A stretch of DNA of 64,000 nucleotides from an uncultured Candidatus Competibacteraceae bacterium (GTDB lineage: Bacteria; Bacteroidota; Bacteroidia; CAIKAF01): contig CAZRHR010000005.1 of assembly GCA_964599915.1 (NCBI GenBank), forward strand, positions 3,145 to 67,144, in the 5' to 3' direction. How positions within the stretch are numbered: position 1 is the stretch's first letter; every line of letters starts with the position of its first letter. The position numbers and the translations under genes are program-made. The notes under the pieces were generated by a model. It was not told the DNA's origin, did no database searches, and saw only the letters and a list, made by a program, of their open reading frames with translations. Of the stretch, positions 29,530-34,202 are shown piece after piece.

Positions 29530-31140
29530 TTACCAAGTGATGATGACCTGCCCTTGTCCGGAGTTGAATCCGCCTTGCTGGCTTGGTGAGGTTCCTGTGT
29601 TGAAGCTGCCGCCACCGGCACCTCTGCGACATTCGCCAGTATGTCCGCCGCTGGCGCCGCCGGAGTAGCCACCACCACCACCACCCTCGCAATTTCGGTT
29701 TCCGCTTCCTCCTCCCCCAAAACCTCCGAAAGTATCACTTGGCCCACCAATATTGCCACCAGTTGCCCCGAGAATTGCACCTAAGCCACCTTGGCCATAA
29801 TATCCATTTCCTCCATTGGTGAGCCAGCCTCCCCCACCTCCTCCATTGGATTGAGCGAGTCCAGCTCCTCCATTCCCTCCAGAACCACCTATCGCATTGC
29901 AGGTGCTTCCACCGCTAGAAGAAGATAACCCGTCCATGCTGTGACTGCCGTTGGTTCCATAGCCACCTCCACCACCAGCAGCAATCATTAAGTTGGATGA
30001 TGTTGGAGATGTTCCGTTGAATACAAAACTTCCTCCGCCTCCTCCGCCACAGCTACCTTCCGTTCCGCCCATTTGTCCAACAAGAATGCCTAATACTTGG
30101 CCCGCACTTACGGTAAACGTTCCCATGGTTCGAGCGCCTAAGCCTCCACCACCTGTTCCGCCGCCTCTGGCGCCGCGACAATCAATGGTGATGGTACAAA
30201 CGCCAGGAGGAACCGTCCAATATTGAATGCCGCCAGTTACGGTGACCACGCCATTTCCATACGCACTGTTGCATTGGCTTTGGCTGGGACCATTAATGCC
30301 TGTTGCACCACAAGGTGTGAAGGTGCGGTTACCTCCGGAAATACAATTGAGCACAGTGATGGTTTGCACGCTGCTGTCCACACAACCTGCGGAATTGGTG
30401 GCTACAAGTTTGGCCGTATAAGTACCGGGGTTGGCCCAAGTAACAGAGGGATTTGCACTGTTTGAAGTGGCCGGGGTACCGGAGGTAAAGGTCCAAGCGT
30501 AGGTTAGCCCAGATTGGGTTGGCGTAAAGGTAACGGCTTGCCCAAATCCTACGGTAGTTGAAGACGCGGTAAAAGTTCCAACAGGGTTGGAAGCCGTCAC
30601 GGCCAGGTTGCTATAAGAAGAGGCACCACAGTAATTTACAGACGAAACACCGATGTTTCCTGTGGTTTGGGTGAAATTGACCGTAATGGTGGTATCTGTT
30701 CCTCCTGATACAATAGTCGCTCCTGCGGGAACAAGCCATTGATAACTTGTTGCGCCGGGCACACCAGCGATGGTATAAACTTGGTTGGTGGCATTGGCGC
30801 AGACAGAAGCCGCACCAGAAACTAAACCCGGCATAGGGGGTGCTTGGGTACAGCTGCAAGACACGTCTTTCCAGCCTGAATTGGTATAAAAAATTTGTAA
30901 GCAGTCACTTGTGGTGTTGAAAACCAAAAGACCATGCGCGGGATTGGCAATGGTATTTCTTTGGGTGAGGGTCATCCTTGGAGGCAAAACGCCCCCTTGG
31001 GTAGATTGAATGTCTAGGATCGAAGAGGGGTGGGGTGGGTTTGAGGCGCCAATGGTCACGCCGTTGCTTTGTGCAAAGGTGATTGCGAATCCCGAAAAAA
31101 CTAAAAATATAGTCTTTAATACTGTGGTTAAAAATTTCAT
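29530..31140 (-). CDS. Secreted Gly-rich protein, paralog 1 (N-module + PKD-like/PKD + ALK/LTK-like glycine-rich domain)
   Basis: Signal peptide ending FAQ; [17 protein letters not shown] module; Ig/PKD repeats; [21 protein letters not shown] followed by poly-Gly runs. Confidence 0.8.
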   Translation of the reverse strand: [536 protein letters not shown]

Positions 31141-31158
31141 TTTATAGTAGTTAGTTAT

Positions 31159-32697: not shown

Positions 32698-34202
32698 GTG
32701 ATGGTTATTTGGCCATTTCCACTTTGAATTCCCGAAGCTCCGGAAGTGTTACTTCCGCTGTTAAAGCTTCCTCCACCTCCACCTCCCATGGCGGAAGGGC
32801 CTGTTCCATAAGGAACACTGCCACCACCTGAATATCCACCACCGCCGCCGCCAGAATGGGTTCCACTGGGATACCCGCCGCCGCCAAATCCACCACAAAC
32901 TCCGCTACAGGTTCCGGCAGGACTGGATAAAACGCTGGTCCATCCTTTTCCTGCGCCCGGACCCACCCCATTGCTTCCGCCGCTTCCACCGGCATTAATA
33001 TTTCCCCGGTCAAATGTGCCTGACGTAGCAGTGGTTCCATTGACGCCGGGTGCATTGGTGGGATTTCCTCCGGAGGAACAAATAGCTCCGCCCCCACCAC
33101 CGCCAGCTGCAATGAGCAGTTGATTAGATCCTTGTACATACACAAAGGAACCTCCACCTCCGCCACCGCCATTATTGGCATCGTTTGTTCCCCAGTTTTG
33201 TCCTTGTCCTCCCACGATTAGATTTAAAACGGTACCCGGCGTTACCGTAAAGGTTCCCACTTGCTGTGCACCTAGCCCTCCAGCTTGGGTGCATGGGTTG
33301 TTTTTTCCTCCTTGTGCCCCTCTGGCATCAATGGTAATGGAACATACATTGGCAGGTACCGTCCATTGAACTACGGAACCTGTAAACGAGGCGGTGTGAC
33401 TTCCTCCGGTGATACAATTGCTTACCGCAATGTTGTTGGTTACTGTGGCGGAACATCCTTGAGCTGTTACCAAAGTATGCGACACAGCATAGGTACCAGC
33501 GACAGTCCATGTAACAGATGGACTGGTGGCGCTTGAAGTTGCCGGGCTTCCACTGGCCATGGTCCAGCTGTGGCTACCTGCTGTTGTGTTTGGCACCAAG
33601 GTTCCTGCATTGTTGGTCGAGAAAGTAGTCGGCGAGGTGGTGAAACCAGCATCTGGGGTTTGTACAGAAAGGGCCACAGAATACGCCGCTGCATTTCCGC
33701 ACGCATTTCCAGCAGTTACAGTCATATTTCCTGATACCGCACCCGTAATGGAGGCCGTTATACTTGCGGTTCCTTGTCCATTGGTAATGGTCATGCCCGC
33801 AGGCACGGTCCAGGTATAGGAATTGGCACCGGCAATTTGTGGTGTAGTAAATACCAATCCTGTTGCTCCAATACACATCCCTGTAGTAGGAGATTGAATG
33901 CTTACTGAAGCGGCAGGCGGCGCCGTACATTCACAGGCCATGCTCACCCAGCCACTTGGCGTGTACATTTCAGCGCAATTACTGGTTAGGTTGTAAATCA
34001 CCAACCCCGCTTGTGGGGAAGAGATGGCATTTCTTTGTAAAACGGTCATGCGGGGAAGTAAAAGTCCTCCTTGGGTACTTTCAAGTTCAAGAATGGCGGA
34101 AGGCTGAACGCTACCCGGTGTTCCTCCAATTTTAACACCTTGTGCATTTAGCGTGAGGAGGGTTCCCACCCATCCAATTAAATAAAAGCCAACACGTCTC
34201 AT
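32691..34202 (-). CDS. Secreted Gly-rich protein, paralog 3
   Basis: Same architecture; stalk is highly similar to paralog 2; ATG at 34202; stop overlaps the next start by 7 nt. Confidence 0.8.
   Translation of the reverse strand: [503 protein letters not shown]

What the first reader, a model, noticed from the sequence alone, without database searches (positions are those of the whole stretch)
29530..34202. Tandem array of secreted proteins tipped with an ALK/LTK-like glycine-rich (polyglycine-II) domain
Three coupled paralogs share the architecture signal peptide / conserved N-module / PKD-like + PKD stalk / Gly-rich tip of roughly 250 aa. The paralog 1 tip reads [21 protein letters not shown]...GIQYWTVP...GARGG...[19 protein letters not shown]...[10 protein letters not shown]...[10 protein letters not shown]...GGFGGGG...GGGGGYSGG. 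This tracks, motif by motif, my recollection of the metazoan ALK/LTK ligand-binding TNF-like/glycine-rich region ([21 protein letters not shown]...GIQIWKVP...YILVGQQG...[10 protein letters not shown]...LIIAAGGGG...GGFGGGGG...GGGGGYIGG). That region folds as a PGII-helix honeycomb. PGII bundles also form the phage S16 gp38 adhesin tip and snow-flea antifreeze protein. Gly-rich homologues are known in bacteria, but a diversified multi-copy family on Ig stalks suggests an uncharacterised adhesin or ligand-capture system.
Basis: partly seen in the sequence, partly recalled or inferred. Interest (0 to 1): 0.75.

Follow-up and report, generated by a model that had tools for sequence, protein, structure and literature searches.

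The report
Secreted bacterial proteins with ALK-like tips
Three neighbouring genes of an uncultured Bacteroidota bacterium encode secreted proteins whose tips are true relatives of the glycine-rich ligand-binding domain of the human ALK/LTK receptors. They belong to a family of about 57 stalked binding proteins in a 2.7 Mb genome, but the domain is already catalogued in bacteria and phages and its function here is untested.

Summary
Three co-oriented, translationally coupled minus-strand genes (29530-31140, 31159-32697, 32691-34202) each encode the same five parts:
- a Sec signal peptide with Gln at +1;
- a ~75-aa N-module (Pfam PF26696 'PTL_trimer');
- a PKD_6 domain;
- a PKD domain;
- a ~250-aa glycine-rich tip.

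The tips are homologues of the ALK/LTK TNF-like + glycine-rich (TG) domain. Paralog 1 hits human ALK at E=2.6e-12. A profile that includes paralogs 2 and 3 hits only LTK and ALK in the PDB (E~1e-14 to 1e-15). The AlphaFold2 model (pLDDT 88.5) superposes on ALK/LTK TG structures (Foldseek E~1e-14, TM up to 0.71).

The genome holds 57 N-module genes (3% of its DNA). Thirty-one carry TG tips; others carry Gly_rich_2, laminin-G, fibrinogen-like or propeller tips.

The N-module also recurs inside giant fibre proteins that end in the S74 trimer chaperone. Its fold ranks nearest to trimerisation domains, but not significantly.

Best reading: N-terminally trimerised, Ig-stalked binding proteins, acting as an adhesin or lectin repertoire. 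The ligand, the oligomeric state and the route across the outer membrane are untested; there is no T9SS CTD, lipobox or secretin.

TG domains are already catalogued in bacteria and phages, so this is a new member of a known kind, notable mainly for its lineage-specific expansion.

The parts
29530..31140 (-). Paralog 1 gene (536 aa): signal peptide, PTL_trimer N-module, PKD_6, PKD, TG tip
   Evidence: ORF and translation; Pfam; PDB phmmer to ALK E=2.6e-12; AF2 pLDDT 88.5; Foldseek to ALK/LTK E~1e-14
31072..31140 (-). Paralog 1 Sec signal peptide (aa 1-23, cleavage TFA|QS, Gln at +1)
   Evidence: Sequence; AF2 helix 2-18; the Q-rule of Bacteroidota SPI substrates is from my own knowledge
30841..31071 (-). 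Paralog 1 N-module (aa 24-100), Pfam PF26696 'PTL_trimer'
   Evidence: Precomputed Pfam label; 57 copies in the genome; AF2 and Foldseek; 58,435 representative clusters
30598..30840 (-). Paralog 1 PKD_6 Ig-like domain (aa 101-181)
   Evidence: Pfam PF19408 E=6.1e-23
30352..30576 (-). Paralog 1 PKD domain (aa 189-263)
   Evidence: Pfam PF18911 E=3.9e-10 and PF00801 E=5.2e-9; ColH PKD hits in the PDB
29533..30342 (-). Paralog 1 TG tip (aa 267-536): TNF-like strands plus glycine-rich core. It includes the ALK-like Cys-bridged [17 protein letters not shown] segment
   Evidence: variable loops between conserved Gly runs
31159..32697 (-). Paralog 2 gene (512 aa), same architecture; the tip lacks the first ALK-like segment
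   Evidence: profile A5 hits only LTK and ALK; phrog_22713 E=4e-25
32422..32646 (-). Paralog 2 N-module (aa 18-92)
   Evidence: phrog_25721 E=1.3e-5 over aa 40-129
31162..31920 (-). Paralog 2 TG tip (aa 260-512)
32691..34202 (-). Paralog 3 gene (503 aa from ATG 34202; 505 aa from TTG 34208), same architecture. Its stop overlaps the start of paralog 2
   Evidence: weak direct ALK hit E=6.5e-3; profile hit
33918..34142 (-). Paralog 3 N-module
32694..33419 (-). Paralog 3 TG tip (aa 264-505 in TTG numbering)
   Evidence: (Gly_rich_2 E=1e-3, ALK_LTK_GRD E=0.78)
44383..45879 (-). Fourth family member in the window (498 aa): N-module, Ig_7, PKD, and a TG tip that passes the Pfam PF12810 threshold
   Evidence: Pfam ALK_LTK_GRD E=1.3e-19, 71.6 bits against a cut-off of 24.5; N-module hit

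Best explanation
Each gene encodes a Sec-exported, probably homotrimeric, stalked binding protein.

Shown:
- a cleavable signal peptide is followed by a ~75-aa N-module, two Ig-like domains (PKD_6, PKD) and a C-terminal domain;
- that C-terminal domain is a homologue of the TNF-like + glycine-rich (TG) ligand-binding domain of ALK/LTK, in sequence and in predicted fold;
- the family has 57 members in this genome, 31 of them TG-tipped;
- the TNF-like strands and glycine runs are conserved, and the loops between the glycine runs are hypervariable between paralogs;
- each paralog is conserved between species.

Inferred:
- the N-module joins three chains;
- the Ig domains hold the heads away from the joint;
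- the rigid polyglycine-II core presents paralog-specific loops that bind a surface protein or glycan of other cells or particles. Phage gp38 and Pam3 gp24 tail-fibre tips work this way, and ALK binds its peptide ligand with the same domain;
- the repertoire gives the bacterium many fixed specificities for attachment or capture.

Not known: the ligand, whether the proteins stay on the cell or are released, and how they cross the outer membrane.
For: TG identity:
- phmmer of paralog 1 against the PDB gives ALK at E=2.6e-12 and LTK at 7e-7, with the non-Gly segment alone at 40.5 bits;
- a profile of the short-type tips, including paralogs 2 and 3, hits only LTK (2.6e-15) and ALK (2.6e-14) among 177,635 PDB sequences, over profile positions 11-242;
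- the AF2 model has pLDDT 88.5, with the tip mostly >90;
- the top 21 Foldseek PDB hits are all ALK/LTK TG domains (19 human chains at E~1e-14 to 1e-12, TM up to 0.71 on the LTK TG domain, ~30% identity; then C. elegans ALK at ~1e-8);
- the fourth paralog passes PF12810 at 71.6 bits.

Binding-tip role:
- the same fold forms the receptor-binding tip of the Pam3 gp24 tail fibre (PMC9608196);
- it recurs in many phage virion proteins and PHROGs;
- Gly runs are conserved and the loops between them are variable;
- sibling N-module proteins carry Laminin_G_3, fibrinogen-like, beta-propeller and Gly_rich_2 tips;
- a 1997-aa T9SS cargo in the same genome carries three TG domains.

Trimer inference:
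- the Pfam name is PTL_trimer;
- the module occurs 3-15 times inside giant proteins, one of which ends in the Peptidase_S74 trimer chaperone;
- the top-ranked Foldseek matches are collagen XV/XVIII trimerisation domains and phage tailspike N-termini.

Extracytoplasmic location: signal peptides and many Cys residues, 15 in paralog 1.

Real, maintained genes:
- the orthologous array in a related MAG shows 79-93% identity, gapless for P1/P3, with dN/dS well below 1;
- there are 20-57 TG copies per genome in two genera, against 0-6 in sister genera.
Against: - No experimental datum exists for any bacterial member.
- The Pfam PF12810 HMM does not reach threshold on paralogs 1-3.
- The structural matches of the N-module are not significant (best E=0.15), and no multimer prediction could be run, so trimerisation rests on a database label and on context.
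- PKD stalks are not intrinsically trimeric.
- No T9SS C-terminal domain, lipobox or autotransporter barrel is present, whereas neighbouring large proteins have CTDs. The 96%-complete genome has no secretin. Surface exposure is therefore unexplained.
- No conserved partner or secretion gene flanks the arrays.
- PGII geometry itself could not be measured, because no model coordinates were available.
Confidence: 0.6

Rival explanations
1. The proteins are released, soluble, trimeric lectin-like agglutinins or capture proteins, a bacterial analogue of ficolins, collectins or C1q/TNF proteins. They are not cell-bound adhesins.
For: No anchor of any known type is present: no CTD, lipobox or barrel. 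The same N-module is fused to fibrinogen-like and laminin-G lectin folds. The layout of a trimerisation unit plus separate heads resembles ficolins (my own knowledge). Collagen XV/XVIII trimerisation domains are among the top fold ranks.
Against: No route for release across the outer membrane was identified either. The Foldseek matches are not significant. The conserved mature N-terminus (QGVxIG...) could equally be a docking element.
Confidence: 0.2
2. They are periplasmic or envelope-internal proteins, for example scaffolds or binding proteins that never reach the surface. The TG domain would then serve a structural role or bind a periplasmic ligand.
For: Only a Sec signal is recognisable. 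There is no T9SS CTD, no lipobox and no secretin.
Against: Ig-stalk plus variable-tip designs are typical of surface and phage recognition proteins, and so are repertoires of 31-57 copies. TG domains also occur on a bona fide T9SS cargo in the same genome. The sibling tips are lectin-type folds.
Confidence: 0.12
3. The genes are prophage or tailocin tail-fibre genes, or their remnants, not cellular genes.
For: The TG fold and the N-module both occur in phage proteins. The N-module accompanies the S74 tail-fibre chaperone in giant proteins.
Against: - All copies have Sec signal peptides.
- The flanking genes are housekeeping (penicillin amidase, MFS transporter, amidohydrolase, PheT), with no phage structural genes.
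- The copies are dispersed over more than 30 contigs.
- The array is syntenic in a related genome.
- No chaperone gene is adjacent.
Confidence: 0.04
4. The polyglycine-II tips are ice-binding or antifreeze surfaces, as in snow-flea antifreeze protein.
For: Both use glycine-rich PPII bundles (bioRxiv 10.1101/2023.11.25.568672).
Against: The fold matched is the ALK/LTK TG domain, not the two-layer antifreeze fold. The variable parts are loops, not a flat repetitive face. The nearest relatives come from bioreactor-type metagenome MAGs.
Confidence: 0.02

Closest known systems
TNF-like + glycine-rich (TG) supradomain of metazoan ALK and LTK (Pfam PF12810 ALK_LTK_GRD; PDB 7NX1, 7LRZ, 7MZY, 7N00, 7NWZ)
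   Same: Homologous in sequence (E 1e-12 to 1e-15) and in predicted fold (Foldseek E~1e-14, TM up to 0.71, ~30% identity). The order of motifs is the same. Paralog 1 keeps the Cys-bridged FTxCGAxGxxGPxQxQC segment.
   Different: There is no EGF-like domain, transmembrane helix or kinase. The protein is bacterial and secreted, and sits on Ig-like stalks behind a putative trimerisation module. Paralogs 2 and 3 lack the first segment. The Pfam HMM stays below threshold for paralogs 1-3. The ligand is unknown, and ALKAL cytokines do not exist in bacteria.
Tail fibre gp24 of myocyanophage Pam3 (PMC9608196)
   Same: A TNF-like plus glycine-rich domain forms the distal receptor-binding tip of a trimeric fibre. 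Glycine-rich motifs are conserved and the distal loops are variable. The authors report structural similarity to ALK.
   Different: gp24 has an alpha-helical N-terminal shaft, no signal peptide and no Ig stalk. It also needs the adjacent chaperone gp25; no such gene lies next to the arrays here.
Adhesin gp38 of Salmonella phage S16 (PDB 6F45)
   Same: A polyglycine-II lattice serves as a rigid platform for hypervariable receptor-binding loops.
   Different: gp38 has no TNF-like sandwich and only 10 PPII helices. It is a separate tip protein attached to gp37. It did not appear among the listed (top-50) Foldseek matches.
Mosaic adhesive trimer (MAT) fibres of Bdellovibrio bacteriovorus (PMC10769870)
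   Same: A multi-paralog family (21 genes) of signal-peptide proteins. A conserved domain directly follows the signal peptide, and the adhesive tips are mosaic. Some members end in an S74 chaperone. That family is shown to be surface-displayed.
   Different: The MAT N-domain is ~130 aa and beta-rich, and the stalks are beta-helix or coiled-coil. The organism is a proteobacterial predator. No homology between the two N-domains was tested here. The family here has Ig-like stalks and mostly TG tips.
Other bacterial PF12810 proteins, including the 1997-aa T9SS cargo of the same genome (contig C7:53372-59365)
   Same: The same TG domain, here in three copies (246 bits), sits on Ig and PKD arrays. 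Many further bacterial examples exist.
   Different: Those proteins carry a T9SS C-terminal sorting domain or other anchors and lack the N-module.

Membership tests
Pfam PF12810 ALK_LTK_GRD (TG domain) | Match to the Pfam HMM above the gathering score (24.5 bits) | tested here: not met
   Paralogs 1 and 2 give no hit. Paralog 3 gives E=0.78, 10.1 bits. The fourth paralog in the window passes with 71.6 bits. Distant homologues of the tip also carry PF12810. The failure probably reflects composition-bias filtering, given the next rows.
Pfam PF12810 ALK_LTK_GRD (TG domain) | Significant sequence homology to solved ALK/LTK TG domains | tested here: met
   Paralog 1: ALK E=2.6e-12, LTK 7e-7. A profile including paralogs 2 and 3: LTK 2.6e-15, ALK 2.6e-14, with no other PDB family at E<=0.01.
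Pfam PF12810 ALK_LTK_GRD (TG domain) | Fold: TNF-like beta-sandwich with an inserted glycine-rich subdomain, superposable on ALK/LTK | tested here: met
   The AF2 model of paralog 1 has pLDDT 88.5. Foldseek PDB ranks 1-21 are all ALK/LTK, E down to 1.3e-14, TM (target-normalised) 0.53-0.71 for the 19 human chains and 0.44-0.45 for C. elegans ALK. This rests on a prediction only. Paralogs 2 and 3 were not modelled separately.
Pfam PF12810 ALK_LTK_GRD (TG domain) | Hexagonal lattice of about 10-14 polyglycine-II helices | tested here: inconclusive
   About 11 Gly runs are present. They are conserved across 29 paralogs and have high pLDDT with no DSSP helix or strand.
Pfam PF12810 ALK_LTK_GRD (TG domain) | N-terminal Cys-bridged segment FTxCGAxGxxGPxQxQCNxAY of ALK/LTK | tested here: met
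   Present in paralog 1 (aa 273-293) and in 8 of 29 TG-tipped family members. Absent from paralogs 2 and 3.
ALK/LTK receptor tyrosine kinases | TG domain followed by an EGF-like domain, a transmembrane helix and a tyrosine kinase | tested here: not met
   The proteins end with the last TNF-like strand (...GQVIITW). Pfam finds no kinase or EGF domain. They are homologous in one domain only and are not family members.
Pfam PF26696 PTL_trimer | HMM match on the N-module | tested here: met
   A precomputed Pfam hit is recorded for these exact three proteins and for their homologues. The model is absent from the local Pfam copy, so I could not rescore it.
Pfam PF26696 PTL_trimer | Forms a homotrimer | not testable with these tools
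   Support is indirect only: the family name; repeated occurrence in giant proteins, one ending in Peptidase_S74; and non-significant top fold ranks to collagen XV/XVIII trimerisation domains and phage tailspikes.
T9SS cargo proteins | C-terminal sorting domain (Por_Secre_tail / CHU_C) | tested here: not met
   None of the four paralogs has a CTD hit. Three other proteins in the window do have one.
Phage TNF-like/glycine-rich tail fibres (Pam3 gp24 type) | No signal peptide, phage structural context, adjacent fibre chaperone | tested here: not met
   Signal peptides are present. The flanks are housekeeping genes. No chaperone-like gene is adjacent.
Bdellovibrio MAT fibres | Conserved ~130-aa beta-rich N-domain, trimeric beta-helix or coiled-coil stalk, demonstrated surface display | not tested
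   This is a design analogy only. No MAT sequence was compared.

The most novel reading that the evidence does not exclude
A subclade of small-genome Bacteroidota (2.4-3.2 Mb) devotes about 3% of its genome to a modular repertoire of trimeric, ficolin- or collectin-like recognition proteins. One universal trimerising N-module would carry interchangeable heads: 20-57 ALK-type TG heads per genome, plus fibrinogen-like, laminin-G, Gly_rich_2 and propeller heads. The proteins would reach the cell surface by a route independent of T9SS, lipoprotein export and T2SS. They would be used to recognise partner or prey cells.

A corollary concerns origins. The paralog-1 type keeps the Cys-bridged first segment and is ~30% identical to human ALK. 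It would be the prokaryotic form closest to the ancestor of the metazoan ALK/LTK ligand-binding domain.
Probability: 0.3. Interest if true: 0.7.

Novelty: new member of a known kind. Interest (0 to 1): 0.42.

Why it matters
The ALK/LTK ligand-binding domain is one of very few natural polyglycine-II lattices. Functional work exists only for the animal receptors and for phage tail-fibre tips built on glycine-rich lattices (structure for Pam3 gp24; host-range genetics for gp38).

Here the same fold is the dominant head of a very large family of secreted proteins in a small bacterial genome. It shares its carrier module with classical lectin folds. That offers three things:
- many natural sequence variants of the loop-presenting scaffold, useful for protein design and for learning how the fold binds ligands;
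- a tractable test of whether bacteria use TG domains as adhesins;
- a concrete puzzle about protein export in Bacteroidota, since no known outer-membrane route is evident.

It also bears on where the metazoan ALK ligand-binding domain came from.

It is not a new fold or a new family. The domains are all in Pfam, and this scan has already met the TG domain in more than 100 genomes.

Tried and rejected
1. Pfam and NCBIfam on the tips alone gave no usable hit for paralogs 1-3. Homology had to be shown through PDB phmmer, a profile and Foldseek.
2. A PDB sequence search with the N-module profile gave nothing at E<=10.
3. Foldseek of the N-module model gave no significant match (best E=0.15). I use it only as a weak hint.
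4. I could not find what 'PTL' stands for. PF26696 is not in the local Pfam and in no paper.
5. Literature searches for bacterial PF12810 function found nothing. The primary ALK structure papers are not held.
6. I looked for a conserved partner or secretion gene next to four other arrays of the family. None recurs.
7. T2SS as an export route is rejected: there is no secretin.
8. The sigma-70 promoter and terminator scan was no better than shuffles. Bacteroidota promoters are not covered by it.
9. dN/dS between orthologues is well below 1, but dS is saturated. It shows purifying selection and cannot localise positive selection. There is no sign of DGR-like hypervariation, because orthologous loops are conserved.
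11. The prophage and antifreeze readings were considered and rejected (see rivals).

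
Full report
**Observation**

The window carries three co-oriented minus-strand ORFs at 29530-31140 (536 aa), 31159-32697 (512 aa) and 32691-34208. The stop of gene 3 overlaps the start of gene 2 (ACATGGTAAGA), and genes 2 and 1 are 18 nt apart, so the three are probably co-translated from one transcript.

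All three proteins start with a Sec-type signal peptide whose predicted cleavage leaves Gln at +1 (TFA|QS, LFA|QG, LNA|QG). That this is the usual pattern of signal-peptidase-I substrates in Bacteroidota is from my own knowledge.

Pfam finds PKD_6 (E 6e-23 to 2e-19) and a PKD domain in each. The ~75 residues after the signal peptide are labelled PF26696 'PTL_trimer' in precomputed Pfam hits on exactly these proteins. The last ~250 residues are 30-40% glycine. The paralogs are 44-45% identical to paralog 1.

**The tip is an ALK/LTK-type TG domain**

- phmmer of paralog 1 against all PDB sequences returns human ALK (E=2.6e-12) and LTK (7e-7) as best hits. The alignment of the non-glycine part alone (aa 273-359) scores 40.5 bits with negligible bias, so glycine richness is not producing the match.
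- Paralog 3 alone gives only a weak ALK hit, and paralog 2 gives none. Both lack the 25-residue [21 protein letters not shown] segment.
- A profile built from seven short-type tips, including paralogs 2 and 3, hits LTK (2.6e-15) and ALK (2.6e-14) over nearly its whole length. It hits nothing else in the PDB at E<=0.01.
- An AlphaFold2 model of full-length paralog 1, built on a 38-sequence alignment, has mean pLDDT 88.5, with the tip mostly above 90.
- In Foldseek against the PDB, ranks 1-21 are all ALK or LTK TG domains. E goes down to 1.3e-14, TM reaches 0.71 when normalised on the LTK TG domain, and identity is about 30%. Next come C. elegans ALK and then generic Ig-repeat proteins.
- The Pfam model PF12810 (ALK_LTK_GRD) does not reach threshold on paralogs 1-3. 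It does on a fourth family member in the same window (44383-45879; 71.6 bits) and on many distant homologues of the tip.

I therefore regard the homology as established in silico for all three.

**The family is far larger than three genes**

- A search of the window's own genome (2.7 Mb, 140 contigs, 96% complete) finds 21 close tip matches. An iterative search finds 34 ORFs with TG domains, 31 of which also carry the N-module.
- In total, 57 ORFs carry the N-module, amounting to 3.0% of the genome.
- Besides TG tips, these proteins end in Gly_rich_2 (PF21722), Laminin_G_3, fibrinogen-like, beta-propeller or FISUMP/Lcl-like domains. Homologues elsewhere combine the module with PF09603, PF00147 and PF12810. 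Most of these are folds usually associated with carbohydrate or surface binding.
- A 1997-aa protein on another contig has three PF12810 domains and a T9SS sorting domain. TG domains therefore also travel to the surface by T9SS in this organism.
- Among the 29 TG-tipped members aligned, the TNF-like strands and the glycine runs are conserved, while the stretches between glycine runs are hypervariable. Eight of the 29 have the ALK-like Cys-bridged first segment.

**The N-module**

- It has no sequence relative in the PDB.
- Its AF2 model (pLDDT 81) gives no significant Foldseek match. The top ranks are all trimer-forming elements, with best E=0.15: phage CBA120 tailspike N-termini, collagen XV/XVIII trimerisation domains (TM 0.56-0.58 on the target) and a streptococcal phage fibre.
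- A profile search of 1.84 billion representative proteins finds 58,435 clusters at E<=1e-3. The best-scoring ones carry 3-15 copies spread along proteins of up to 6,840 residues. One of them ends in a Peptidase_S74 domain, the intramolecular chaperone of trimeric phage fibres.
- The internal copies include the GVxIG start of the module. The module is therefore not simply an N-terminal sorting tag.
- It also occurs at the C-terminus of a protein of Leptolyngbya phage Lbo-JY46 and matches phrog_25721 weakly.
- It is present in 30 of 151 sampled Bacteroidota genomes at 1-19 copies, against 57 here.

Together with the Pfam name, this makes a trimerisation knot of fibre-like proteins the best reading. 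It is an inference; I could not run a multimer prediction.

**Genomic and evolutionary context**

- The flanking genes are ordinary: penicillin amidase plus a small membrane protein downstream, and a divergent MFS transporter and an amidohydrolase upstream.
- Other arrays of the family, of 2 to 8 genes, sit among unrelated genes with no recurrent neighbour. This argues against a prophage and leaves no candidate dedicated export or assembly partner.
- The closest public genome is a MAG labelled Competibacteraceae, which is surely a mislabel. The other hits are Saprospiraceae MAGs, and the genome has T9SS cargo. This MAG has the same three-gene array next to the amidase.
- Orthologues are 79%, ~88% and ~93% identical; the P1 and P3 alignments are gapless, P2 has a few 1-residue indels in the tip, the loops are conserved, and dN/dS is well below 1 although dS is saturated. 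The paralogs are therefore old and individually conserved. This fits fixed, distinct specificities better than rapid diversification.
- Within the order, two genera with 2.4-3.2 Mb genomes have 20-57 TG matches per genome, and the other genera have 0-6.

**Mechanism**

Shown: Sec signal, domain order, TG homology, family size, and the pattern of conservation.

Inferred:
- the N-module joins three chains;
- two Ig-like domains act as spacer;
- the glycine lattice is a rigid platform whose paralog-specific loops bind a target on other cells or particles.

This parallels phage S16 gp38 and Pam3 gp24, where glycine-rich motifs are conserved and distal loops recognise the host (PMC9608196; bioRxiv 10.1101/2023.11.25.568672). 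It also parallels ALK, which uses the same domain to bind a peptide ligand. As a design, the repertoire resembles the 21 mosaic adhesive trimer fibres of Bdellovibrio, which also share a conserved domain right after the signal peptide (PMC10769870).

Unknown:
- the ligand;
- whether the protein stays attached;
- how it crosses the outer membrane. There is no T9SS CTD, no lipobox and no secretin in the genome.

**Rivals**

- Released soluble ficolin-like lectins (0.2).
- Periplasmic proteins (0.12).
- Phage or tailocin fibres (0.04).
- Ice binding (0.02).

**Comparison and novelty**

The proteins are homologous to ALK/LTK in one domain only and are not receptor kinases. The TG domain is already catalogued in bacteria, phages and protists:
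- PF12810 appears on many homologues;
- many BFVD phage proteins share the fold;
- earlier notes of this scan report it in more than 100 genomes.

I found no functional study of a bacterial member. The new elements are the coupling to the PTL_trimer carrier shared with lectin folds, the lineage-specific expansion to dozens of copies in small genomes, and the missing export route.

I rate it a new member of a known kind, of moderate interest.

**Limits**

Only paralog 1 was modelled. Trimerisation and surface exposure are untested.

Noticed in passing
window 44383-45879 (-) and 45915-48629 (-): A fourth family member (498 aa; N-module, Ig_7, PKD, TG tip passing PF12810) sits directly downstream of a 904-aa Calx-beta/PKD protein with a CHU_C T9SS sorting domain.
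   Followed up: partly
L002 4446-4700: In the closest related MAG the orthologue of paralog 2 has a frameshift inside the N-module. Frame 2 reads the normal MAQGVKM...VETHI* and the rest continues in another frame. This is either a pseudogene or an assembly error.
   Followed up: partly
own genome, contig C7:53372-59365 (-), outside the window: A 1997-aa protein with three tandem PF12810 TG domains (246 bits), five Ig_7 domains, four PKD domains and a Por_Secre_tail T9SS sorting domain. It has no N-module.
   Followed up: partly
own genome, contig C69:1175-13327, outside the window: An array of eight consecutive N-module genes with mixed tips (Gly_rich_2, Laminin_G_3, He_PIG and others). It is the largest cluster of the family.
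   Followed up: partly
own genome, contig C67:11711-12187 (-): A 158-aa protein with the N-module that ends in ...GGDPTLVYTVDGF.
   Followed up: no
L013 5065-6207 (Leptolyngbya phage Lbo-JY46, protein XAI97394.1): A phage hypothetical protein carries an N-module-like domain at its C-terminus (41% identity, E=8e-8). A metagenomic 847-aa protein (P0134) also has it C-terminally.
   Followed up: partly
P0135 and other top hits: The N-module occurs 3-15 times inside giant proteins of up to 6,840 aa. P0135 (4,024 aa, 10 copies) ends in Peptidase_S74 and shows weak DUF2793 and Lcl_C matches.
   Followed up: partly
window 29095-29502 (+): A 135-aa ORF for a hydrophobic protein with no Pfam hit. Its start overlaps the stop of the penicillin amidase gene (26570-29098), and it converges on paralog 1.
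   Followed up: no
L002 record title (CAZOEO010000002.1): The closest related MAG is labelled 'Candidatus Competibacteraceae' (Gammaproteobacteria), but it shares this Bacteroidota-type locus at 79% protein identity. The public label looks wrong.
   Followed up: no
own genome, contig C16:21396-21557 (-): The only Peptidase_S74 domain in the genome lies in a 450-aa frame just upstream of a TG-tipped family member (C16:22716-24260).
   Followed up: no
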